Below the pieces are notes generated by a model. That model did not search any database. It was not told the DNA's origin and saw nothing but the letters and a program-made list of their open reading frames with translations. Positions 2,136 through 58,926 of a stretch of DNA of 64,000 nucleotides are shown here, in pieces (position 1 is the stretch's first letter; every line of letters starts with the position of its first letter). The translations under genes and the position numbers were made by a program. Source of the DNA: Eledone cirrhosa. Taxonomy: Eukaryota. The DNA lies in NCBI GenBank assembly GCA_964016885.1, contig OZ024761.1:18662001-18726000 (forward strand), written 5' to 3'.

Positions 2136-4348
2136 CATACAAATAATTGTTTCTACTTTAGGCACAAGGCCAGCAATTACCAAGTACATTACTGGTACTT
2201 TATTTTATCGACCCCGTAAGGATGAAAGGCAATTTAACCTCGGCGGGATTTGAACTCAGACTGTAAAGGGACGTAACTATGCTGGAAAGCATGGCGTCCA
2301 ACCCTCTACCGATACTGCCAATTCACCGACATACAAATAATGAATCAAAACATATCAAATGTTTAGAATTTTGTGTTTCTCAATAAGCAGGCTCAATAGA
2401 CTATATCTAGAGCCTGATGGAGATGATGAAGGACCGTGACGAGTGGAGAGATGCTGTGCTGAATAAGACCCGTCCCACCCTTGCAAGCAGGGAAAAGCGG
2501 ACGTAAAATGATGATGATGATGATGATATACACTAGGGTAGGCTGAATAGGAAGGAGTGATGCTAGAGCTGTGAATTCTTGCATGCATTAATTTCAACTC
2601 TTCTTAATAATAATTGCATTGTTTCTATCCAGGGACTATGTTGAGAAATAAACCTTATTTGGTCATTCCATGAGAGTATTTTGGTTAGCTTATGAACTTT
2701 TCAGCCGACCCTCAAAAACCCGCATCTTCAAAAAGAAATTATCGAAATAGTTTGATTTTTAAAATAATTGTTTCTTGATTAATTGATTAATAACATTTAT
2801 TTATGTATTTATAAATAAAATGTTTTTCTTTTTTAATAATGATTTCTAGTATAGGCACAAGGCCAGCAATAATCCCAGTGTATTACTGGTACTTTATTTT
2901 ATCGACCCCGTAAGGATGAAATGTAAAGTTAACCTCGGCGGAATTTGAACTCAGACCATAAAGGGCCGTAACTCTATGCCGCAAAGCATGGCGTCAGACC
3001 GTCTACCGATACTGCCAATCCACTACCTTTTTTTCTTTTTTAATTATAAATCAGAGTCGATAGTGTAAAAATACGCACACATGTACACCAGGTCCGAACA
3101 CAGAGGAGCCGAACTCCCAGTGTCATCGCCTCCATCTCTCTCGCCCTCCACATCTCTCACTTGTGTTTCTACGTTTTGGTACAAGGTCAGCTATTTGAAG
3201 GGACGGGGCGGGGGGGGGAGTCGATTACACCGACCCTAATACGTTGCTGGTACTTTATAATGAATCTGCGACCCCTATTCCCCACGTAGCGACGTGCAGA
3301 GGTCTGGCGATACCCGGGGAAAATCTCGATTGTATGCCCCAAAGACTCAAGTATAAGGCCTAATATACTGGCAAAGGAAAACATTTTGAATATATAAACA
3401 CGGATGAAACATGAAATGCACGCTTTATTCGATTTTAATATAAATCAATCAAATTAAATTCTTTTCCCCAAAGGATGCCCGGGACCAACACACCGTCGCC
3501 GCCCCTCAGCACGTTACTCTCGCCACGTAAGTATCACAGGCAAAGCTAACCTAGGTGGGGTTTGAACTCAGAGCGTAGAACATCCTAGCTAAATATCACA
3601 AAGCATTTTATACGAGGCTCTACCGATACTGCAAATGCAATCACCCTTTATAATAATTACTTCATAGAGTTACGGCCCTTGCCATTCCGACTTCAAACCC
3701 CGCCGAGGTTAACTTTGCCTTTCATCCTCACGGCGTCCATAAAATAAAGTACCAGTAATACACTGGAATTTGCTGGCCTTGTGCCAAAAGTAGAAACAAT
3801 AATAATTACTTCTGATATTGTATTGACACAGGGCCAGCAATTTTTGCTTTTGTGACGAGGTGGATGGGGGTGGACCTCGATTATATTGATACCCCAGTGC
3901 ATGACTGGTATTTTAATCGATTTAGTTTTCCTTTTATTTAATTTTTAGCAAGTTTGATTTTTACTGAAGCTGAAAAGAAAATTACGTCGTGCGTTTAAGG
4001 GCGTGCCCACATATATATATATATTAGAAAGATCGAGTATCGAAAAATCGGCGCACGAGTTCACGATAAACGAGATTCGATAAGAGCGGCAGAGGGCTCA
4101 ATAATTCAGATGAATCAGAGCTATAACTATCGTTAAAATACCGTCACATATAGAACAAGTCTACAATCAACCATACGATTTAAAATCGATAGAGGAAGAT
4201 TCGGGACAAACAGATAAAAAATATCAATAAAACAATACGTCAATAATTTAAATGATTGGGCACGCCCTTAAACGCACGACGTAATTTTCTATATATATAT
4301 ATAAATAAATAACGCCTTTAAATGCACTACGAAATTATTATATATATA

Positions 4349-4545
4349 TAGGAACGAGTAGGACCCCGACGGCTGAGCTCAAGCCGTTTCGACAGCTAAT
4401 TCTGTCCAGAATTAGCCGTCGAAACGGCTTGAGCTCAGCCGTCGGGCTCCTACTCGTTCCTATTACCCACTCTACTACCCTAAGTATTCAGTACTTTGGT
4501 GCGTTATGGTCCACCTGGTTCCTTACCACATTTCCTTCGTTATAT
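4349..4545 (+). mobile_element. (TA)n-embedded hairpin element; copies ~7180-7280, 25270-25332, 46828-46992, 55553-55743, 57040-57200
   Basis: shared gaccccgacggctgagctc..ccgtttcgacagcta hairpin and tail taagtattgagtact..ggtgcgttatggtccacctgg. Confidence 0.7.
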
Positions 4546-4727
4546 ATACTTTAACTTTAATTATATCTCATAAAATAATACAACTGGTTTTTCCACATTA
4601 TACATATTGTTAGCACCCCAAACACTTAAATTGGGTTTATATTTTAATATAACCTAATGTTTGTTGAGTGAGATGGTTACCAGTCAGAGTTTAGCTTTAA
4701 ACTATCTCTATTATTGTATTAATTAAT

Positions 4728-4758
<31 letters not shown>

Positions 4759-5830
4759 ATACAGGTACACGTGTGTGTTGGTGTGCTTTTGAGTTTGTTG
4801 GGGTGTGCTTCTATATATGTGACTGTTTATATAAATATGCGGGCATGTGGATGTGTGTATATATCTATATATATATATGTGTGTGTGTGTGTGAGTATGT
4901 AAGGATATATATGAATGAGAAGAGGAGTGTTATATGTGTGTGTGTGTGTGTGTACACACATATATGTGTGTAAGTGTGTATATCTATATATGTATGTTGT
5001 CATTCGTCCAGTCGTAGCACGAGAAAGTTGGTCACTTAGAATTAACTCCTATCATTACTAGAAGACACCCAATGGTTGTGGCGGATAAAATTAATCTTAC
5101 TATCTATCTATCTCTCCTTTTTCTTTCCTTCACTGCCCTTCCCTTTTTGTCATTCTCTCTTACTACACGACAACTGAACTGGTAGTGGTGGCGACGGAGA
5201 GGAGATGGACTATAATTAATCTCTATCTCTATCTCCCTCTCTCTCTTTCCTTCATTATTTTTCACTTCTTGTCATTCTCTCTCTCTCTCTCTCTTTTTCT
5301 GTCTTTCCCTCATTGTTCTTCTCTCTCTCTTACTACAAGACAACAGCATTGGTAGAGAAGGCGGACAATAATTAATATCTCTCTCCTTTTCTTTCCTTTC
5401 ATTGTTCCTCTTCTTGTCGGCCCCCCACCCTTCTCTCTCTCCTAACTAAACACCTCTTTTTAAGAAAAAATAACAAAACATACAACAAACATCTCGGAAA
5501 AGCTATAGTTCAAAGAAGTTCATAAACTCAAAAAATCAATTTTGTTTCCATCTTATATAACATATACATACAACCTAGAGTGCGTGTGTTTAAAATACTG
5601 TACTGAAAACCTAATGACCACTGAATTCGTCTGAACAGAGTTTAAGATATAATTTCTATTCTAGATGAAGCAATAAGCTGGAACTTCGAAGTCACTGTCA
5701 CTTTCCTCTTCATATATATATATGTATATATATGCTTTGGTGACTCTTCTTTCGTGACTGTCACCTGTTGCAGAGAGAACAGAAGGGAAAAGAGAGAGAG
5801 AGATAGCAACAGAGACAGAGCCACACACAA

Positions 5831-7046: not shown

Positions 7047-7294
7047 TAGATTATATTGGAGTTTACCAATATATGTCCTGGTAAAGATTATAGAAGCTCA
7101 ATGCTAATCAGTATCCTTGATAGAAAGATAAACAGATAAGGATTTTAGCAGTTTTAAACTAGTAAAACCATTTCAGCAGAGTACTCGGTACTTGGAATAG
7201 TAGAGTGTAACTATATTAAAGGGAGTTGGGAATTAGCTGTCGAAACGGTAGGAGCTCAGCCGTCGGGCCTCGACACCCTCTAATATATATATAT

Positions 7295-7388: not shown

Positions 7389-8213
7389 ATATATATATAT
7401 ATATATATATTTTACAAAGAAACACCCTTTCCGTTGTAGTGTGTAACGAAGTAATCCCTTTTACGGTTTAAAAAAAATGTTTTTTTTTCTGATTAATTTT
7501 CATTCATTTAATTCTTATATAATTCATCATTATTATTATTATTTCCCACCTATTCTTGAGATTATCGTGGGGTAAAGACTCCCTCCTCAGTGAATATATG
7601 TAAATCATATTCATTATATAAATTATTCCAGTTATTTCATATATAAATAAAACAATGCTTCTTAATTTAGTTCGCGCTTCTTTTTAAATATATATTTATA
7701 ATAATTGTTTCTACTTTTGGCACAAGGCTAGCAATTTTTTCAGTGCATTACTGGTACTTTATTTTATCGACCCCGTAAGGATGAAAGGCAAAGCTAACCT
7801 CGGCGGGATTTGAACTCTGACCATAATAATAATGAAAATATTGTGTACAGTGCTCAGGTGCACTACAACTCATCAAAAGTGTATGTATAGTACATAGGGT
7901 AATGTGCATCTGAATTACATATATGTCAAATGTGTTTGTAGTTCTCTCTCTGTAGAGTTAATACAATCTTTATTTTATTTACTTACTTGAAAATAAAAAT
8001 GTTTGGTTTGATTTAAAAATGTATATCTTAGTGAAATTTCCCATCAGCCTCATCTTGTCCAAACAAGAGAACTCGCGTCTTTGCCTTCTTTTCGCTCTCT
8101 TTCTAACTTGAATCTTGCTATCTTATTTAGTAACTAAACATTCCATTGCTGTTATTGCCTATACTTTCTCTGTATCTCTTTCTCTCCTCTCTCTCTATCT
8201 CTCCCTTTTTTTT

Positions 8214-8954
8214 TCTGATCTCTCTCTAGCTCTTTCTCTCCCTGTCTTTCCTGATCTCTCTCTAGCTCTTTCTCTCCCTGTCTTTCCTGATCTCTCTCTA
8301 GCTCTTTCTCTCCCTGTCTTTCCTGATCTCTCTCTAGCTCTTTCTCTCCCTGTCTTTCCTGATCTCTCTCTAGCTCTTTCTCTCCCTGTCTTTCCTGATC
8401 TCTCTCTAGCTCTTTCTCTCCCTGTCTTTCCTGATCTCTCTCTAGCTCTTTCTCTCCCTGTCTTTCCTGATCTCTCTCTAGCTCTTTCTCTCCCTGTCTT
8501 TCCTGATCTCTCTCTAGCTCTTTCTCTCCCTCTCTTTCCTGATCTCTCTCTAGCTCTTTCTCTCCCTGTCTTTCCTGATCTCTCTCTAGCTCTTTCTCTC
8601 CCTGTCTTTCCTGATCTCTCTCTAGCTCTTTCTCTCCCTCTCTTTCCTGATCTCTCTCTAGCTCTTTCTCTCCCTGTCTTTCCTGATCTCTCTCTAGCTC
8701 TTTCTCTCCCTGTCTTTCCTGATCTCTCTCTAGCTCTTTCTCTCCCTCTCTTTCCTGATCTCTCTCTAGCTCTTTCTCTCCCTCTCTTTCCTGATCTCTC
8801 TCTAGCTCTTTCTCTCCCTGTCTTTCCTGATCTCTCTCTAGCTCTTTCTCTCCCTGTCTTTCCTGATCTCTCTCTAGCTCTTTCTCTCCCTCTCTTTCCT
8901 GATCTCTCTCTAGCTCTTTCTCTCCCTGTCTTTCCTGATCTCTCTCTAGCTCTT

Positions 8955-8965
<11 letters not shown>
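8214..8965. repeat. 36-bp CT-rich minisatellite, ~21 copies (TLCD intron 1)
   Basis: unit cctgatctctctctagctctttctctccctgtcttt; source of the 392-aa PDLSLALSLPVF pseudo-ORF. Confidence 0.95.
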
Positions 8966-8985
<20 letters not shown>

Positions 8986-13654: not shown

Positions 13655-14135
13655 CTACTACTACACCATACCACTGCTACTATTATCACCATCACTACCA
13701 CCAGTACTACTATCACCACCAGTACTACTTTCACCAGTCCTATCACTACCACCACCACCACTACAATCACCAGTACTACTACCACCACTACTATCACCAC
13801 CACCTCTGCTACCACCACTGCTACACCAGTACTACTATCACCACCACTACCATCACCACCACCACCACTACAACCACCAGTACTACTATCACCACCACCA
13901 CTACAACCACCAGTACCACCACCACCACCACTACTATCACCACCACCACTGCTACCACCAATACTACTATCACCACCACTACTATCACCACCACCACCAC
14001 TACAACCACCAGTACTACTATCACCACCACCACTACAACCACCACCACCACCACCACCACCACCACTACTATCACCACCACCACTGCTACCACCAGTACT
14101 ACTATCACCACCACTACTACCACCAATACTACTAC
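13655..14135. repeat. (ACC/ACT)n degenerate trinucleotide tract
   Basis: direct inspection. Confidence 0.95.
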
Positions 14136-14229
14136 TCTTTTAACCAAATATCTGAATGGATTAGCTGTGGCCATGAGTTCATATGCACTTAATAGTGTGT
14201 GGGGGTGGGGTGGGGTGACAGTGTTGTTG

Positions 14230-14957
14230 TTATGGTGGTGATGGTGATGGCGTCAGTGTTGATAGTGGTAGTAGTGGTGATGATGATGGTAGCATTGGTG
14301 GTGATGATGATGGTAGCATTGGTGGTGATGGTGGTGGCAGTGGTGATGATGGTGACAGTGGTGTTGGTGGTGATAGTGGTGGTGGTGGTAGTAGTGGTGA
14401 TGATGATGGTAGCATTGGTGGTGATGATGGTGGTGGCAGTGGTGATGGTGGTGATAGCGGTGGTGGTGGTGATAGTGGTAGTAGTGGTGATGATGGTGGT
14501 GGCAGTGGTGATGATGATGACAGTGGTGTTGGTGGTGATAGTGGTGATAGCGGTGGTGATAGTGGTAATGGTAGTGGTAGTAGTGGTGGTGGTGATAGTG
14601 GTAGTAGTAGTGGTAATGGTAGTGGTGGTGGTGATAGTGGTGATAGCGGTGGTGGTGGTGATAGTGGTAGTAGTGGTGATGATGATGGTAGCATGGGTGG
14701 TGATGATGGTGGTGGCAGTGGTGATGGTGGTGATAGCGGTGGTGGTGGTGATAGTGGTAGTAGTGGTGATGATGGTGGTGGCAGTGGTGTTGGTGGTGAT
14801 AGCGGTGGTGGTGGTGATAGTGGTAGTAGTGGTGGTGGTGATAGTGGTAATGGTAGTGGTAGTAGTGGTGGTGGTGATAGTGGTAATAGTAGTGGTAATG
14901 GTAGTGGTAATGGTAGTGGTGATAGTGGTAGCAGTAGCAATGGTGGTGGTGGTGGTG
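14230..14957. repeat. (GGT/AGT/GAT)n degenerate trinucleotide tract
   Basis: direct inspection; complementary in composition to 13655-14135. Confidence 0.95.
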
Positions 14958-16339
14958 AGATTGAATTGGTTAGCAACAGCAATAACAACATCAGTCCACA
15001 TAGTAACACAATACTCCTGAGGATTGGAACAAAACAACAAAACATAAATAAAAAAAATCTTTTTACTATATAAACCCTCTCCCCCCTCACACACACATAC
15101 AGATATTGGTAATTAATTATCTTTGTCTCATTAGAAGGTGTGCAGGGGGTGGGTGGGTGATAGAATCAATGACACAGGTAATACAGGAGTATTACCTGTG
15201 TCATTGATTCTGTCTTATAGTTCTGAGATCACTTTGGTTATTGTTGTTGTTGTTTTGTTTAGCCCTAGGTCAGTCCTGTGCCAAGAGACAGACCTGTGGT
15301 CAAACATATTTCAGCTCTGCTCATCCCACCATTTCTTTCTTTGTCTTTTGGACATAAGTGTATCTAGGACTATAGGCAACAAATTGGCAGAGTGGTTAAG
15401 ACGTTAGATAGAATGCTTTATGGTATTCGTCCCTCCTCATTGCGAGCTCTAAGTTCAAATCCCGCTGTGGTCAACATTGCCTTTCATCCTTTCGAGGCCG
15501 ATAAATAAAAAGGACCAGTCCAGTTCTGTGATCGATTCTTTCTCTATAGAAAAAATCAGCTGTGTTCAGACCTGGAAAGGAGATGCGCTCTGCCAGACTT
15601 AATAAAAAAAAAACATGCCCAAGACACGCTGTGCTGTATGTTACTATGGCACCTCTGCAACTCCACCAGGAGTTACAGGTCCATATCATCATCGTCGTTT
15701 TACGTCCGTTCTTCCACGCTAGCATGGGTTAGACGGGTTGTCCTGTTGTGGGCAGTGTCCGGTCGGCTGACCTTGTCTTGCTCATACTGGAACTGATTCT
15801 GGCATGATTTCTACAGCTGGATGCGCTTCCTAACACCAACCGCATTTACAGTGAATATATATATATATATAGGACTACATTATTATACAGTGTCCTCTTA
15901 CTTGTTTCAGTCATTTGACTGTGGCCATGTTAGGGCACTACCTTGATTTAGTCGATCATATTAAAACCAGCCCAGTACCAGCACTACTGTATATATATAT
16001 ATATATATTGCAAAGTGGTCGTGGAGGTGCCATGGCAAAAAAGCACCCACCAAACACTGTAAAGTGGACATGTAGGCGCCATGGAAAAAAAGCAACCAGC
16101 ACTCACTGCAAATGAGGTTGGTGTTAGGAAGGGCAACCAGCTGTAGAAATCAAGCCAGAATCAGTTCCCGTATGAGCAAGACAAGGTCAGCTGACCGGAC
16201 ATGTAATACATAGGTGAGAAATAAACTAATCATTATAATAAACACGGTGGCTGAGGAGTTAAAAAGTTTGTTTCACAACCATATGATCCCAGGTTCAATC
16301 CCACCGATTGACATTTTGGCTAATACTAAGTCTTTATGA

Positions 16340-20524: not shown

Positions 20525-22262
20525 ACACTAAAGTACCATACCACTACAGCCACCAACACCACTAATATCAAACTGGTTTAGACACTAAAGTACCATACCA
20601 CTACAGCCACCAACACCACCAATACCAAACTGGATTAGACACTAAAGTACCATACCACTACAGCCACCAACACCACCAATACCAAACTGGATTAGACACT
20701 AAAGTACCATACCACTACAGACAGTCACCAACACCACCAATACCAAACTGGTTTAGACACTAAAGTACCATACGGTGGATTGGCAGTAATTGGTAGAGCG
20801 TTGGACAACATGCTTTACACTAAAGTACCATACAACCACCACCACCACCTCCACCAATAGCAAATTGGATTAGACACTAAACTACCATACCACTATAGCT
20901 ACCAAACTGGATTAGATACTAAACTACCATACCACTATAGCTACCAAACTGGATTAGACACTAAACTACCATACCACTATAGCTACCAAACTGGATTAGA
21001 CACTAAACTACCATACCACTATAGCTACCAAACTGGATTAGATACTAAACTACCATACCACTATAGCTACCAAACTGGATTAGATACTAAACTACCATAC
21101 CACTATAGCTACCAAACTGGATTAGATACTAAACTACCATACCACTATAGCTACCAAACTGGATTAGATACTAAACTACCATACCACTATAGCTACCAAA
21201 CTGGATTAGATACTAAACTACCATACCACTATAGCTACCAAACTGGATTAGATACTAAACTACCATACCACTATAGCTACCAAACTGGATTAGATACTAA
21301 ACTACCATACCACTATAGCTACCAAACTGGATTAGATACTAAACTACCATACCACTATAGCTACCAAACTGGATGAGATACTAAACTACCATACCACTAT
21401 AGCTACCAAACTGGATTAGATACTAAACTACCATACCACTATAGCTACCAAACTGGATTAGATACTAAACTACCATACCACTATAGCTACCAAACTGGAT
21501 GAGATACTAAACTACCATACCACTATAGCTACCAAACTGGATTAGATACTAAACTACCATACCACTATAGCTACCAAACTGGATTAGATACTAAACTACC
21601 ATACCACTATAGCTACCAAACTGGATTAGATACTAAACTACCATACCACTATAGCTACCAAACTGGATTAGATACTAAACTACCATACCACTATAGCTAC
21701 CAAACTGGATTAGATACTAAACTACCATACCACTATAGCTACCAAACTGGATTAGATACTAAACTACCATACCACTATAGCTACCAAACTGGATGAGATA
21801 CTAAACTACCATACCACTATAGCTACCAAACTGGATTAGATACTAAACTACCATACCACTATAGCTACCAAACTGGATTAGATACTAAACTACCATACCA
21901 CTATAGCTACCAAACTGGATGAGATACTAAACTACCATACCACTATAGCTACCAAACTGGATTAGATACTAAACTACCATACCACTATAGCTACCAAACT
22001 GGATTAGACACTAAACTACCATACCACCACAGCTACCACCACCACCATCAATACCAAACTGGATTAGACACTAAACTACCATACCACCACAGCTACCACC
22101 ACCACCATCAATACCAAACTGGATTAGACACTAAACTACCATACCACCACAGCTACCACCACCACCATCAATACCAAACTGGATTAGACACTATACTGCC
22201 ATACCACCACAGCTACCACCACCACCATCAATACCAAACTGGATTAGACACTAAACTGCCAT
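20500..22262. repeat. Compound minisatellite (57-bp, 42-bp x ~27, then 60-bp units) beginning at the TLCD stop codon
   Basis: 42-bp unit actaccataccactatagctaccaaactggattagatactaa from 20881. Confidence 0.95.
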
Positions 22263-25050: not shown

Positions 25051-25366
25051 GTGTGTGTGTGTTTGTATATATGTGTGTGTCTGTATGTATGTGTATGTAT
25101 ATATAGATATAGATATATTTGTGTGTCTGAATATATATATATATATTTGTGTGTGTGTGTGTGTATATGTGTGTGTATATATCATCATCATCATTTAACA
25201 TCCATTGTCCATGCTAGGATGAGTATATATATAATGTGTGTATATAAATATATATATATATACTGCTGACTTAGTTTGGATTTAGCTGTCAAAATGGTGG
25301 AGCTCAGCCGTCGGGGTCTTGATTCTTTTCCTATATATATATGTGCATATGTTTATATATATATGT

Positions 25367-30819: not shown

Positions 30820-30867
30820 ATATAAATATATAATATAAGATCAAAAGATGGTTAAAAGAGTTCCAAG

Positions 30868-30938
30868 TATTTTATTATGCGCATTTCAAAAACAAATATC
30901 ATCATGAGATGACATCTGCGTTCTCATCAGATAAAATA
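30868..30938 (-). ncRNA. Hammerhead motif, inverted copy of 31057-31127
   Basis: mirror arm of a palindrome centred at 30997/30998. Confidence 0.8.
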
Positions 30939-31056
30939 GGGAGACATGATATGAAGCTTAAAAGACACTTGTGAATAGTGAAGTTTTAAATCAACATATG
31001 TTGATTTAAAACTTCACTATTCACAAGTGTCTTTTAAGCTTCATATCATGTCTCCC

Positions 31057-31127
31057 TATTTTATCTGATGAGAACGCAGATGTCATCCCATGATGATATT
31101 TGTTTTTGAAATGCGCATAATAAAATA
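31057..31127 (+). ncRNA. Minimal type I hammerhead ribozyme motif
   Basis: tattttat-CTGATGA(31065)-gaacgcagatgtcatc/ccat/gatgatatttgttttt-GAAA-tgcgca-TA-ataaaata; perfect 8-bp stem I, long stem II, palindromic stem III. Confidence 0.85.
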
Positions 31128-31641
31128 CTTGGAACTCTTTTAACCATCTTTTGATCTTATATTATTTATACTCCAGTCCCACAAACTGTAGAGTGCTACT
31201 TATCCGATATTTGCATTGCTTTATTGTACTACAATAAAACTCACCTCCTACATATATATATATATATATACACATATATACAAAATACACACATTGCATA
31301 CATATATATACATATTTGTGTGTGTTTGTTTATTTAACCCGCAGCACACTCTGTAAAGATGTAGAGATCAGGTGAAGTGGAAAAGAGTCAGTAGACTTGT
31401 GGAGGACCTCATTACTAGTGTTGATTGTGGTGGGGTGATAGCAGTAGTGGTGGGGATAATGACGGTGGTGGTGTTGACAGTAATGATGATGATGATGATA
31501 GTGGTAGTGGTGGTTATAGTATTAGTATCACGTCTGCTAGTGATGACTAAATCGAACAATTTAGGACAAAGTCTCATTTTAGTTTCTTGTTCTGTAATTC
31601 TGTATATAAGTCAATCGCCTCCCCTCTCTCACATCTATATA

Positions 31642-39997: not shown

Positions 39998-40267
39998 CTA
40001 TCCTGACTTAAACAGAAGGATAGCAACTTGGCCCAAGTAGAAGTAGATAAAATGTTTGGTTTCATGGGTGACATAACTTCCAAAGTTACGTCCCACAATG
40101 CAATGCCAAGTTGGGTTGAACTTCTTGTCAAACTCCTTCTTGATATAAGCAGCAATGTCCTTCTCTATGTTGAACTTGTCGAGAGCTTGAGTGGCACAGT
40201 CTATAGCATCTGACTGCATTTCTTCAGACATATCGGCATTCTTGATGACGGCTTTTCTCTCAGACAT
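39998..40267 (-). CDS. DYNLL: Dynein light chain LC8 (DYNLL1/2 family), 89 aa, single coding exon
   Basis: [89 protein letters not shown] is the near-invariant LC8 sequence; T-tract + CAG acceptor 6 nt upstream of the ATG (exon starts 40273). Confidence 0.97.
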
Positions 40268-40612: not shown

Positions 40613-43600
40613 ATTTATATGCAGCCATCACACATTGTACATGTATGCCAAGAACACACAAGATCCAAAAGACTGTCTTAGCAATATCCGTTCCAGCTAT
40701 CTTGTGGTCAAACCTCAGACAGATCAACTTTGCTTTTTACCCTTTCAAGGTTGATAAGTAAAGTATCAATAAAGCACTGGAGTCGGTTCTCTCTCTAGAA
40801 GAAATCAACAGTGGGAGGGGGGGGGGGGGGAATGCTCAGCCAATTACACACACACAATGGTTCTCCTAAGGGGAGCGGAGAAGAATCAGTTAGGTAGGGC
40901 ACTCAATACATTAATGGAGACTGTTACCATAGTTTGAAATCATCAGGAATGCCCTGATGATTTCAAACGAAAGTTCCAACCTTGTAGAAACCATTTACAC
41001 ACACACACACACTATTTAAATATATAAATTAGAACCAAAAAGAATTGGTAATTCTACCATCCTCTCAATCAACTACCCCACCAAACCAAAGCCATGTCAC
41101 TCATTAGAAATTAATTATTACAATCAAGCTTTGTTGATAAATACACTAATGTCACATAACACTTTTCATCAATCGCATAAAAAATTAGGCTATTATCCTA
41201 AGGCAATCTAAAGACACTTAAAGCAACAATTTATACAACATTCCACCTTATACAGAGGTTATATTATCACATCTTAAACGAAAGACACATACATATTAAC
41301 GTTTTTTTCTCCCCCCCCCCTTTTTTTAAAGGCCGCTACAATGCAGATAAATATAAATTGCAATCGAAAGAAACCGAGTATAAAACCTCTGGAGAAGGAA
41401 AAAAGATGAGAGCCGCTTGCGGGAACCGAACCATAGAGGCTCCAAACACTTAAGTACATTACTATTACAGTGTATGTATATGACCTTTTCTTTAAAAAAA
41501 AAAAAAAAAAAAAAAGAGGAAAATTTTGTTGAAATTTCCAACTACGTACATACTCAACATCCATCCAAATTATATTATTACGACATAGTTAAAGCTACCT
41601 GTTTGAAGATAGAAAGAAATATGTATATATGCTGTATCTTTAAAAAAATGTGTAAATAGAAGGAAAGGTGAAAATAATTACGGGCGAGGTGTTAGCGCCT
41701 CCGAAAGCACGTGATATTAGTACGCTCATCCTAAATGTGGTTTAATTCCTAATTGATGATGTAAAGCGAAACGACAGAGAGAGAGAGAGAGCGAGCGAGA
41801 GGAAGGGAGGGAAGGAGAGGGAGTTGACATTATCGATATACCGACTGGCAGGCAGGCAGACAGAGACATCTTTAGAGGGATGGATGTAGGAAATGAAACC
41901 AACGAGGGAGGGAGGGAGAGAGAGAGAGAGGGGGGAGCAATGGAAACACGAAGGGGAGATGAAGATAGAGAGGAAAGACGAACAGAGAAATATATAGAAT
42001 GCGTGTGTGAGAGATTGAAGTTGGGGGTGGGGTGGGGGCAGTGCAGCAATTTTGTTAGTGTGCAATGGAACTGACATGGTGTACGTCAGTCGTTGAGGAG
42101 AGGAAGAGAAATCATTATTCCCAAACAATGAACTGATGTTGGAAACGTCTGTGAGTGTGTGTGTGTGTGTGTGTATAGGAACGTATATATATGTGTGTGC
42201 GCGTATGTATGTATGTATATACTCTCTCCAGCCTCTCTGATGTAACAATTTGAGATTCAAGTGAAGCATCTGTAATTCTGCTGTAACCCGAAACATTATC
42301 ACGTAGTTACATCTCTTGTTAAATGTCACACAACAGCAGAGAGACGGAGAGAAACTGGAGTTTTGTGTGTAAACACACAATTTGTAGGTGTGTACGTTTG
42401 TAGTTGTCTGTGTGTGTGTGTATATATATACACATATATAATACACACGTTCGATTCATTTATTTATTAACTACACATATATATATTTTTTAAATGTGCA
42501 CGTGTATAAGTATTTGTAGGCCTATGTATATATCTGTGAGAGTGTAATGAAGGTGTGTGAAACACGATCAAACGAGACCATCTCTCTACCAAGAACTATG
42601 AAAGAATTTTAACAATTTCGACAAGGATTATCGTAAAAATCTTACAAACAGAATGACATTCCTCTGTCATTTCATCTTTTGCTATGGAGAGGGAGAGAAA
42701 GAGATGGGAAGGGTTGTTTTTTTTAAATAACCCTTTTGATGTTTTTATAATAGCTTCGTTAACATAAATCCCTTCCCTCAATTATTTTAATCTACAAAGG
42801 ATAATTTTCATTATATTAGAATATTACAAGAGGAGTCCCACCCTTGCAAGCAGGGAAAAGCGGACGTAAAATGATGATGATGATGAGATAGAGATAAAGA
42901 GACATTATTATAAATAACTATATTGTTTGACCGTTGTAATTCTTGACTTTTTTACTACAAGACGCTTAAAGAATGGTAAATTAAAAACTTTTTTTTAAAT
43001 AAAAAAACAAAAAAAACTGTCATAACCAGAAGTTATACGCATTTAACTATCAAAGAAAAAAAAAAGGGGGGTTTCTTTTTCATATCAAACCACCTCTGGT
43101 TTTACAATAGAAATCAGTCTTAAAAGTATTTATATTTATTTAAGAAACTTCCCACTATAATTTTCATGTTAAAACCTTTAAGTTATGCCCCAAATAATTC
43201 AAACGGTAAAGTGGACCACTTCAAATTTATTTTTCAAAAGTTATTCGAAAATCGTAGGGGTCTGTGTTATTATAAATATGGCAACAGAATGGTTAAGATA
43301 AGCTAAAGTAGAAGCATTCGATGTAGCATATTACTGGTACTTTTGAGGGAGGAGAGGTCATCTTGAACTTTAATTCTTTTACTAGTTTCAGTTAAGAGAT
43401 CGCTGGGCACTGCCTTAAAAAGAAACATGTTTAATAAGACTCCTTCATAAATTACTGGCGCGGGGGACCAAAACCACCACCAACATGCGGGGGTCGGTTA
43501 AAAAGTTTATCTCATCTTTTTAAAATTTTTTTATTAATAACTGCATTGTTTCTTACCAGGCACAATGTTGAAAAATAAACCTCATTTGGTCATTCCATGA

Positions 43601-46200: not shown

Positions 46201-47789
46201 AATGCCGGTTCGGTCTTCTTATTTTCCACGCAACCAAACATGAGTTTGAAGACAATTCATGACCTTTACTTATAAAAAGACATTCAGTCAGACCGTAACT
46301 TTAAGATAAGCTCTCGATGTATATATGCTGGCATGTTTGTGTGGTAAAGGAGTACCCTTTCATATAAATATTATATATATATATATATAAATTATTAAAA
46401 AAATAATGAATAAACAAAGAAACAGTTCCTTATATTAAAAAAAATTCATTATTAAACGATCGTAAAATAATGAATTTTTTTTAATTTTTTAATATAAGGA
46501 ACTGTTTCTTTGTTTATTCATTATTTTTTTTAATAATTTATCTTGACTCTGTTTTCCGTTTATTTTTCACCGAAAGTAGTTTTTGAATGCATCTTCTCTT
46601 TTCATGATATCCGGATTACATCGAGTTCTTCATACGGATTGGACACTACCGTAAACTTTTGGTAGATTTATCTATATATATATATATATATATCTGCGTG
46701 TAAAATATTTCCGTAGAAATGGTAAAAGAAAAAAGTGTGCTCTATGTATAATACAGGGCTATTTAATTATGTAATAAGCAACACAATATAATATAATATA
46801 ATATAATATAATATATATATATATATAACATAGAAGGTGTGGTAAGATACCAGGTGGACCATAACGCACTAGAGTACTCAATACTTAGGGTAGTAGAGTG
46901 GCTAATAGAAAAAGAGTCAGGACCCCGACGGCTGAGCTCCAGCCGTTTCGACAGCTAGATCAGTCGAAACGACGGGAGCTCAGCCGTCGGGCAAGACTCA
47001 CTATTTAGCAAAAAATAAATCGAAATAAAAACATCTCCATTTCATTGTAATGTGGTTCCTCGTATATTGACATCACTCCCAACAAACACTTTAACCGATT
47101 GGGGCCATTGAGGGGTCATAAAACCGTGGTATAAACTTTTTAACCGACCCCCGTATGTTGGTGGTTTCGATCCCCGCGCTAGCAATTTATGAAGGGGTCT
47201 TATTAAACCTGTTTCTTTGTAAGGCAGTGCCACAGTATGATCGCAGTCTCTTAACTGAAAACCTTCCTTAATTTTATATATAAAGACTCTGCGGTGGCGA
47301 AACCGGGGTGACCGCTAATCGTGGTACACAATATATTTTTAAAATGTTTACACACACAACATTCATCTCATCTTACATTTCCCCCACAAACACAGAATTC
47401 ATTCTTCTGTTATAGTTCGCTCCCAACTTACTATTCCCGTGTGTTCGTCCGATGGAGGCACACGGCTTAGTGGTTAGAGCATTGGGCTTGCAATCAAAAG
47501 GTTGTGAGTTCAATTCTCAGACCGGGTGATGTGTTGTTTCCTTGAGCAAGACACTTTATTTCACATTGCTCCAGTTTACTCAGCTGTAGAAATGAGATGA
47601 TAGGGACTGGGGTCCCTATCATTCCACTGTAAAGTGGTCGTGGAGGTGCCACGTCAAAAAAGCACCCAGCACTCACTGTAAATGAGGTTAGTGTTAGGAA
47701 GGGCATCCAGCTGTAGAAATCAAGCCAGAATCAGTTCCCGTCCCACCCTTGCAAGCAGGGAAAAGCGGACGTAAAATGAAATGATGATG

Positions 47790-47822
<33 letters not shown>

Positions 47823-48007
47823 TATAAATATTAATAAAATAGATGTTCTTTTGATCAATTAAATTATATTTCAAAGGTACAACAGTACAACATATAATGA
47901 TACATGACATACCCTGAGATGTTAAATGGTTAAGATTTAATCAAGGTAGTCTTGATTAAATCTTAAATCTTAACCATTTAACATCTCAGGGTATGTCATG
48001 TATCATT

Positions 48008-48062
48008 ATATTTTGTCTGATGAGGACGTACTGTTGTACCTCTGAAATATGTATAATAAAAT
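48008..48062 (+). ncRNA. Hammerhead motif
   Basis: attttgt-CTGATGA(48017)-ggacgtac/tgtt/gtacctct-GAAA-tatgta-TA-ataaaat. Confidence 0.75.
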
Positions 48063-55321: not shown

Positions 55322-55755
55322 ATATGTAAAGGGTAAACAGAAGTAAGAACACAATCGGTACAGTATATGGAAGGGATATATTAGGTTAACGCTTGATGTA
55401 GCAGGAAGAGGGACTTAACGTTTCGGAGTTTCGGACACTAGTTCTTCATCAGAAGAAAGAATGAGAAATAAGTTAGATTGAATGATGGGCGGGTTGAAAT
55501 TGGAAAAAATGTCTTTAAATAAAAATAACAGGCCCATTCCTGTTATATATATATAACAAAAAAGTGTGGTAAGAAACCAGGTGGACCATAACGCACCAGA
55601 GTACTCAATACTTAGGGTAGTAGAGTGGGTAATAGGAAAAGAGTCAGGACCCCGACGGCTGAGATCCGACCGTTTCGACAGCTAGATCCAAACTCAGTTC
55701 GGATCTAGCTGTCGAAACGGCCGGAGCTCAGCCGTCGGGGTCCCTTCTCTTCCCT

Positions 55756-56271: not shown

Positions 56272-56345
56272 GTTATTCCGGGTTGAATCGGAGGTAACCA
56301 CAGTAAGTAAGGTACTCAATACATTGCAGAGTATAAAAGTTTTAA

Positions 56346-56451
56346 TATAGATGAGATTCTACAGGACTAGAACTGTTTCATTCTTTAGAAATCATCAGGA
56401 ATCACTGATGATTTCTAAAGAATGAAACAGTTCTAGTCCTGTAGAATCTCA

Positions 56452-58747: not shown

Positions 58748-58839
58748 ATAAACATGTCAGTGCATGTATCTCTCTCTCAGGGCTTCCTGATGATTTCTCA
58801 CGAATGAAACAGTTCTAGTCCGGTAGAAGCTTTTCTATA

Positions 58840-58926
<87 letters not shown>

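What the first reader, a model, noticed from the sequence alone, without database searches (positions are those of the whole stretch)
4349..4464. Hairpins that look like half a hammerhead mirrored about its stem II loop
Seen: the right arm reads attagccgtc-GAAA-cggct/tgagctc/agccg-TC-gggctcc. That is a stem II 3' strand, GAAA, a well-paired stem III, a GUC site and a stem I 3' strand. Where CUGANGA should be, the left arm is simply the reverse complement of the right arm. The same layout recurs at 46923-46992 and 55647-55743. The copies at ~7232 and ~57175 also stop at this loop. No copy in the window keeps CUGANGA. Inference: cDNA synthesis or repair repeatedly folds back at the ribozyme's stem II hairpin and copies itself, turning a quasi-palindrome into a perfect one. 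This would be a structure-driven route to foldback elements.
Basis: partly seen in the sequence, partly recalled or inferred. Interest (0 to 1): 0.78.

Follow-up and report, generated by a model that had tools for sequence, protein, structure and literature searches.

The report
Penelope retrotransposon head-to-head run-off hairpins
The hairpin is one of thousands of short head-to-head insertions of a Penelope-like retrotransposon whose two arms stop at the same point inside its hammerhead ribozyme motif, likely because two separately primed DNA copies run off the start of the element's RNA and are joined there, which would explain how these elements get their inverted ends.

Summary
The hairpin is real (54 of 56 bp; z -17.6). 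It is a short insertion of a Hydra-clade Penelope-like element (PLE); its tail 30-mer has 22,808 exact hits in the genome. The right arm is the 3' half of a hammerhead. Intact parents exist, but their core is mostly UUGANAA (5,771, the known U3-A8 variant), then CUGANAA (1,798); canonical CUGANGA is rare (21). Breakpoints cluster strongly: 55 of 90 tail arms end within -4..+10 of one point 18 nt upstream of GAAA. Fold-back at stem II fails: none of 67 inverted copies keeps the stem II 5' strand. In 39 of 40 long pairs exactly one arm carries the tail, and arm lengths are uncorrelated. The stop lies 29-31 nt downstream of a TATA-like word. A sister family stops 30 nt after a TATA box but at stem I, not stem II. 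Best model (inferred): both target strands are primed at two fixed RNA sites, both cDNAs run off the transcription start, and their ends are joined. No RNA data tested the start site. Inverted PLE ends and tails are known; the start inside the ribozyme and the pair statistics were not found in print.

The parts
4340..4349 (.). (TA)n target, left side
   Evidence: (TA)n on both sides in 64 of 67 sampled inverted copies
4349..4404 (-). tail-less arm, element positions +5 to +60 (+1 = the shared stop point); G4404 is shared by both arms (1-nt microhomology)
4404..4542 (+). tail-bearing arm, element positions +2 to +140
   Evidence: colinear with parent L151:4971-5110
4410..4448 (+). 3' half of a type I hammerhead: stem II 3' strand 4410-4420, GAAA 4421-4424, stem III to 4442, predicted cut after C4443, stem I 3' strand 4444-4448
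   Evidence: sequence; parents and pairing
4463..4542 (+). 80-nt 'tail' between the two fixed 3' ends (+60 and +140), both ending in TA
   Evidence: (TA loose ends at L151:5030 and 5110)
4541..4548 (.). (TA)n target, right side
46826..47005 (.). older-subfamily pair: tail arm on - strand (to about +7), tail-less arm on + from 46963 (+16); outer end approximate
55554..55743 (.). older-subfamily pair: both arms reach +1 (55694 and 55696)
   Evidence: parents L166, L169, L175-L177, L180
57040..57201 (.). tail arm on - strand (to about +7) joined to a 27-nt + strand piece of the tail end (+113 to +139)
7179..7283 (.). diverged pair: tail-only arm on - strand (read by eye) and tail-less arm on + from 7230 (+7)
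25273..25333 (+). lone tail-less arm from +1 to +60, ending in (TA)n

Best explanation
The hairpin is a short head-to-head insertion of a Hydra-clade Penelope-like retrotransposon into (TA)n, likely made when both target strands were primed at two fixed sites on the element's RNA and both cDNAs ran off its 5' end, a predicted transcription start inside the hammerhead's stem II loop, before being joined. Shown: the family, the two fixed 3' ends (+60, +140), the shared 5' stop, one tail per pair, independent arm lengths in long pairs, TATA-like spacing. Inferred steps: (1) Pol II starts at +1, so the mRNA begins with only the 3' half of the ribozyme, and a whole ribozyme exists only in the downstream pseudo-LTR. 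(2) The RT-endonuclease nicks both strands of (TA)n; one strand primes at +140, the other at +60. (3) Priming at the pseudo-LTR/tail near the cap gives two run-off cDNAs (short hairpins); priming at a downstream pseudo-LTR/tail gives two long, independently truncated arms. (4) The two cDNA 3' ends are joined by 0-4 nt microhomology, a template jump or A/T filler, so each arm serves as the template for the other's second strand.
For: Family: near full-length parent L151 and intact 719-aa ORF in L248 with RLRW, DKT, CxCX5C, VIY..YIG, CxxC and CxH motifs, matching the Hydra definition (PMC8557442 section 11). Stop point: 55 of 90 tail arms end at -4..+10; per-base stopping rate 12.5% there against 0.7% on each side; summed contig depth in two other runs of one sample rises from 132k to 1.5M across this point. 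Start-site signs: TATA-like word at -29 to -31 in most long copies and near-invariant T[T/C]AGT at +1 while the loop varies; in family 2 a TATA box at -30 in 12 of 12 long arms scored, and 14 of 14 short paired arms ending at -1..+9. Two cDNAs: tail at exactly one end in 39 of 40 long pairs, in 61 of 67 short pairs and in 7 of 7 family-2 short pairs; tail-less arm reaches further 5' in 20 long pairs, tail arm in 16; Spearman -0.07, p 0.70, n 38; no excess of symmetric pairs, 5 against 3.7 expected. Short arms pair with short and long with long. A related PLE cleaves and extends both strands and starts RT at two adjacent internal sites in vitro (PMC11167929).
Against: No RNA run was listed, so the start site is untested. 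A cap-derived extra G at -1 was inconclusive: G 20, A 5, C 25, T 60 of 110 arms, but G is just as common at other stop positions. The oldest subfamily has no TATA-like word at -31. Some centres sit symmetrically on small internal palindromes (L075, L086, L095, L127), which a snap-back explains equally well. Deletion across the centre of a perfect palindrome could also give asymmetric arms in either direction. In vitro the Anolis element showed no strand preference for either start site, whereas the pairs here need coordination. Full-length tandems start at -95 to -317, so some templates extend past +1.
Confidence: 0.62

Rival explanations
1. One cDNA is primed at +140, runs to the RNA 5' end, snaps back on a local microhomology and copies itself; the endonuclease or repair resolves the copy at +60, and later deletions across the palindrome centre make the arms unequal.
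For: Overlaps at 25 of 56 short junctions and symmetric centres at internal palindromes; arms nearly always carry the same subfamily marks. Self-priming was proposed for PLE inverted junctions (PMC3846280) and endonuclease resolution for the tail (PMC8557442).
Against: It needs a secondary deletion in 20 of 40 long pairs, some over 3 kb from one arm only (L230, L239). Arm lengths are uncorrelated and symmetric pairs are not in excess. Filler lies between the arms in 20 of 56 short junctions.
Confidence: 0.2
2. Two cDNAs are joined as in the best model, but the stop at +1 is an RT stall at the inner hairpin of the stem II loop, or a processed RNA end, not a transcription start.
For: An inner hairpin whose 3' base lies near +5 is predicted in most parents; a second group of ends lies at +4..+8.
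Against: The inner hairpin is weak and differs between subfamilies, while the stronger stems II and III cause few stops. Family 2 stops 30 nt after a TATA box, with a different ribozyme layout. A splice acceptor at the AG would remove +1 and +2, which many arms keep.
Confidence: 0.1
3. One reading: cDNA synthesis or repair folds back at the ribozyme's stem II hairpin and turns a quasi-palindrome into a perfect one.
For: Ends cluster within the stem II loop; two inverted copies reach -15 and -19.
Against: 0 of 67 inverted copies keep the stem II 5' strand or the whole loop; asymmetric pairs; family 2 stops at stem I with its ribozyme intact.
Confidence: 0.04
4. The hairpins are a MITE-like non-autonomous family copied from a few short palindromic masters.
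For: Fixed outer ends and very high copy number.
Against: 40 of 42 measured centres are distinct; every subfamily, and a sister family, makes its own hairpins.
Confidence: 0.03

Closest known systems
Hydra-clade Penelope-like elements (Craig et al. 2021, PMC8557442)
   Same: C-terminal GIY-YIG-type ORF with RW(K/R), DKT, CxCX5C, CxxC and CxH motifs; (TA)n targets; pseudo-LTR hammerhead; inverted 5'-truncated copy and a tail at one end.
   Different: Unit 3.1-3.6 kb (described as generally under 3 kb); core mostly U3-A8, not canonical; 80-nt tail (30-40 described); most copies are about 200-nt hairpins with one fixed 5' stop.
Poseidon of Anolis (PAc), in vitro (Frangieh et al. 2024, PMC11167929)
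   Same: Two adjacent RT start sites bounding the tail, near the RNA 5' region; both target strands cut and extended; AT-rich target; ribozyme activity dispensable for insertion.
   Different: In the parts read, the paper does not link this to head-to-head joints or to run-off at a start site, and it saw no strand preference for either site.
Adineta vaga Penelope inverted pLTRs (Arkhipova et al. 2013, PMC3846280)
   Same: Head-to-head inverted pLTRs, palindromes at the joint, tail on one pLTR, TATA and initiator-like words in the pLTR.
   Different: Explained there by self-priming on an antisense template; few copies, no breakpoint statistics.
U3-A8 hammerheads of Schistosoma Cercyon PLEs (PMC4209133) and other natural U3-A8 cores (PMC3088659)
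   Same: The same core covariation in a PLE pseudo-LTR.
   Different: Here stem III is a full 5-6 bp helix, and stem II has 6-9 bp with a loop of about 33 nt that holds the predicted start site.
L1 twin priming (recalled, no call)
   Same: Both target strands prime, and two cDNAs join at short microhomology.
   Different: L1 inverts a non-overlapping upstream piece; here both cDNAs copy the same stretch, giving a palindrome.

Membership tests
Hydra-clade PLE | RWK-like motif and DKT in place of DKG | tested here: met
   RLRW at 35, DKT at 117 of the 719-aa ORF of L248; definition
Hydra-clade PLE | CxCX5C linker, C-terminal GIY-YIG, CxxC and CxH motifs | tested here: met
   motifs at 572, 591/606, 670, 698. 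Motif match only: Pfam gave no family for the L151 and L153 fragments, PDB no significant hit
Hydra-clade PLE | (TA)n insertion target | tested here: met
   64 of 67 inverted copies have (TA)n on both sides
Hydra-clade PLE | generally under 3 kb (a tendency) | tested here: not met
   unit lengths 3118, 3523 and 3593 nt
Hydra-clade PLE | placement in an RT tree with named Hydra elements | not tested
   no tree built; reference sequences were not extracted from the supplement
EN+ PLE structure | pseudo-LTR partial tandems, inverted 5'-truncated copy, tail at one end | tested here: met
   L233, L241, L248, L262 tandems; 39 of 40 pairs with one tail
Type I hammerhead (intact parent) | three helices around the core with G10.1-C11.1, A15.1-U16.1 and H17 | tested here: met
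   87.9% of cells paired; 14 cells with a change on both sides, 2 of 500 shuffles as high. The 5' side was fixed by the search pattern and the rows are related, so this leans positive. Constrained fold within 0.7-2.2 kcal/mol of the minimum for 5 of 5 U3-A8 copies
Type I hammerhead (intact parent) | canonical CUGANGA core | tested here: not met
   21 of 7,669 pattern hits; 5,771 are U3-A8, a known covariation; 1,798 are C3/A8 mismatched. Rfam gave no hammerhead hit on the C3/A8 copy L034
Type I hammerhead (intact parent) | self-cleavage | not testable with these tools
   needs an in vitro assay
Type I hammerhead (the window's hairpin) | core and stem I/II 5' strands present | tested here: not met
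   absent; the arm starts at +2
MITE / foldback DNA element | a fixed internal sequence copied from a master | tested here: not met
   40 of 42 centres distinct
Non-LTR retrozyme | tandem monomers each with a complete hammerhead | tested here: not met
   copies are dispersed head-to-head pairs with half ribozymes; definition

The most novel reading that the evidence does not exclude
Penelope-like elements insert by obligatory twin priming: a protein dimer primes both target strands at two sites on one RNA and the cDNAs are joined end to end, which replaces separate second-strand priming and explains both the inverted end and the tail. In this family the promoter is built into the ribozyme (TATA-like word = stem II 5' strand, start site = loop II). 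The mRNA then begins with a substrate half-hammerhead that the 3' copy's catalytic half, 3 kb away, could complete in trans, and well over ten thousand ready-made ~55-bp dsRNA hairpins are scattered through the genome as by-products.
Probability: 0.35. Interest if true: 0.78.

Novelty: new variant of a known kind. Interest (0 to 1): 0.55.

Why it matters
How PLEs form their tandem and inverted ends is named as open in PMC8557442, and self-priming on an antisense template was the published guess (PMC3846280). This family offers tens of thousands of independent insertion records that separate the models, and it has an intact ORF copy (L248) for an in vitro test. A transcription start that splits a ribozyme would let one sequence be inert at the RNA's 5' end and active at its 3' end. 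A large young subfamily with a mismatched core (1,798 hits) suggests cleavage may be dispensable for spreading. The hairpins are self-contained dsRNA when transcribed. If the host is a cephalopod (my impression from recalled repeat types; not tested), they are candidate ADAR substrates: PMC5625713 reports very high dsRNA potential and hyper-editing in octopus without naming the repeats, in the passages seen.

Tried and rejected
Rfam on the window (150 of 297 rows listed, none a hammerhead) and on a parent: no hammerhead hit. Pfam and PDB: nothing. The homologue search gave 1,404 relatives, mostly unnamed, many with PF26215 or PF28514; the names of these families were not given. A fixed difference between the arms (GGGCTCC against GGGGTCC) looked like proof of two templates, but it was query bias: 71 sporadic hits, split about evenly between arm types, one concordant pair. 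Rejected. Cap-derived G at -1: inconclusive. RNA runs: no RNA holder listed. The repeat finder on the whole window was swamped by an unrelated inverted array. Whether ribozyme-dead subfamilies make more long copies: no clean count was possible, dropped. Earlier findings of this scan: nothing returned. Literature searches found no paper on this family, on twin priming in PLEs, or on a start site inside a PLE hammerhead. Repbase, Dfam and most subscription papers were not searchable, and the Hydra sheet and sequence files of the PMC8557442 supplement were searched once but not read through, so the family may already be catalogued there.

Full report
Observation. Window 4349-4404 is the reverse complement of 4407-4462 with two mismatches (-104 kcal/mol, z -17.6). 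The right arm continues for 80 nt to 4542, and both ends meet (TA)n. Related copies lie near 46.9, 55.6, 57.1, 7.2 and 25.3 kb. The genome is 3.0 Gb. A 30-mer from the tail has 22,808 exact hits and its reversed control none. The hairpin is therefore one copy of a very abundant repeat. I number positions from +1, the A of T[T/C]AGT 18 nt upstream of GAAA; the window's right arm starts at +2 and its left arm at +5.

The parent. Unfolded copies exist. L151 holds a pseudo-LTR, the tail, a frameshifted ORF and a second, degenerate pseudo-LTR. L248 holds an intact 719-aa ORF with RLRW, DKT, YRDD, CxCX5C, VIY..YIG, CxxC and CxH. These are the features given for Hydra-clade PLEs, which also target (TA)n (PMC8557442 section 11, read whole). 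The unit is 3.1-3.6 kb, longer than the 'generally under 3 kb' given there. The assignment rests on motifs: Pfam and PDB gave nothing, and I built no tree.

The ribozyme. Upstream of GAAA the parents carry a stem I 5' strand, a 7-nt core, G10.1, and a 6-9 bp stem II closed by a loop of about 33 nt. Exact pattern counts: UUGANAA 5,771, CUGANAA 1,798, YUGANGA 100, of which 21 are canonical CUGANGA; controls 0. U3-A8 is a known covariation, reported in Schistosoma PLEs (PMC4209133, passages) and as active (PMC3088659 section 8). On 22 copies picked to span subfamilies, 87.9% of cells pair and stem II shows compensatory changes (14 cells; 2 of 500 shuffles as high). The 5' side was fixed by my pattern and the rows are related, so this leans positive. 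Cleavage is untested.

Breakpoints. I took 90 of the first 100 listed tail hits, all from the first 27 Mb of contig C1 and all needing an exact 30-mer, so biased to younger tail-bearing copies. Ten were left out to fit the calls; two of these later proved to be long arms. Of 90 tail arms, 25 end at +11..+60, 55 at -4..+10, 3 at -30..-11 and 7 run past -50; stopping rates are 0.7%, 12.5% and 0.8% per base. A few placements at -4 are artefacts of a small local quasi-palindrome and really lie near +3..+5. 67 of 90 have an adjacent inverted arm: 61 end near +60, 2 carry the tail, 4 are cut shorter. In contigs of two other runs (one sample), summed depth rises from 132k at L151:4940-4963 to 1.5M at 4964-4987 and 3.8M beyond, is about 1.9M over the tail and falls to about 10k in the ORF, with TA loose ends at +60 and +140. 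Contig depth is a rough measure, but the steps fall where the sample puts them.

Fold-back at stem II fails. It needs the cDNA to reach the stem's 5' strand at -35..-25 and leaves the loop between the arms. The furthest any of the 67 inverted copies reaches is -19. The centres are two copies of the first bases after +1, with overlap in 25, blunt joins in 11 and filler, often A or T runs, in 20 of the 56 pairs re-measured. 40 of 42 measurable centres are distinct, so each was formed separately. In 13 of 56 the tail-less arm reaches at least 8 nt further 5' than the tail arm; in 10 the reverse.

Long pairs. I picked 40 loci from the listings for opposite-strand core hits within about 6 kb and one (L242) for two same-strand hits; both arms are therefore long by selection. 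39 have the tail at exactly one end, counting L228 with a partial tail and L233 with a shortened tail-less end; L250 is ambiguous. The tail-less arm reaches further 5' in 20, the tail arm in 16, they are equal in 2, and 2 are complex. For 38 pairs, with lengths read by hand from those calls, Spearman is -0.07 (p 0.70), the median difference 1,063 nt, and near-symmetric pairs are not in excess. Where resolved, junctions overlap by 1-3 nt. A single self-copying cDNA primed at the tail cannot give the 20 cases without later one-sided deletions, and one primed at +60 cannot give a tail. Short arms pair with short ones (67 cases); one short arm has a probable long partner (L110), and 5 of the 7 long tail arms have partners that also pass +1, the other 2 being unresolved. 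This suggests both primings use the same site on the RNA.

What is +1? In long copies T[T/C]AGT is nearly invariant while the loop around it varies. A TATA-like word starts at -29 to -31 in most of them and doubles as the stem II 5' strand; the oldest subfamily lacks it. A second family in the window (56340-56450; 17,196 exact hits) is tied to a related ORF in L323 (39-46% identity) and has a canonical CUGAUGA hammerhead. In 30 loci, 14 of 14 short paired arms end at -1..+9 of a point 30 nt after a TATA box (12 of 12 long arms scored; 3 more long arms were lost to indels, 1 lone arm is shorter), and 7 of 7 short pairs have one tail. That point is the start of stem I. The stop therefore follows promoter spacing, not stem II. 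TATA-to-start spacing and the initiator consensus are recalled knowledge. PLE promoters are known to lie in the pseudo-LTR (PMC2377424, passages; PMC3846280, passages). No RNA data were available, and a test for a cap-derived G was inconclusive.

Mechanism. The inferred sequence is transcription from +1; nicking of both (TA)n strands; priming at +140 and +60; run-off at +1, or independent truncation when a downstream pseudo-LTR is used; then end-to-end joining. The Anolis PLE cuts and extends both strands, starts at two sites bounding the tail, is predicted to be a dimer, and inserts without ribozyme activity (PMC11167929, parts 1-2 of 4 read), though it showed no strand preference for either site. 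The main rival, snap-back at the RNA end followed by deletions, is not excluded (0.2). Tandems starting at -95 to -317 need read-through RNA or a jump to the 3' pseudo-LTR; I could not tell which.

Known and new. Inverted 5'-truncated copies, tails, (TA)n targeting, opposite-strand hammerhead pairs and U3-A8 cores are all described. Eight literature searches showed no report of this family, of twin priming as the source of PLE inversions, or of a start site inside a PLE hammerhead. Repbase, Dfam and unread supplement files may hold the family. Also seen: bioRxiv 10.64898/2026.07.22.740005 (part 1 of 5) and PMC5625713 (passages). Verdict: a new variant of a known kind, interest 0.55.

Noticed in passing
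window 56340-56450, 40880-41000, 58770-58840: Second PLE family with a canonical CUGAUGA hammerhead forming head-to-head hairpins joined at the start of stem I; TATA box at -30; 17,196 exact hits; its tail shares an 11-nt word (GTATTGAGTAC) with family 1, a candidate protein-binding site.
   Followed up: yes
L031-L060, L214-L216; A young subfamily with a C3/A8 mismatched core (1,798 hits) has spread widely; its ribozyme is predicted to be impaired.
   Followed up: partly
window 62992(-)/63130(+), 30930(-)/31065(+), 23440(-)/23988(+), 27577(-)/28330(+), 48017, 53287, 55452, 26685, 54111: Further minimal hammerheads with CUGAUGA, several in head-to-head pairs; 30840-31160 is a near-perfect palindrome of about 300 nt. 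Probably other PLE families.
   Followed up: no
window 47897-48006: 110-nt palindrome directly upstream of a minimal hammerhead at 48017; its Rfam miRNA match is below the gathering score.
   Followed up: no
window 13669-14958: Two facing arrays of degenerate (CAC/TAC)n and (GTG/GTA)n that form a large inverted repeat.
   Followed up: no
window 20861-22038 and 8181-8967: Very homogeneous tandem arrays: 42 nt x 28 (98%) and 36 nt x 22 (97%).
   Followed up: no
window near 40227, - strand: Stretch that reads by eye like a dynein light chain exon (name recalled, not tested).
   Followed up: no
window 47464-47520: tRNA-like match just above the gathering score, likely a SINE head.
   Followed up: no
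L233, L241, L248, L262: Full-length units preceded by partial pseudo-LTRs starting at -95 to -317, upstream of the predicted start; 3' UTRs differ strongly between subfamilies while the ORF is about 90% conserved.
   Followed up: partly
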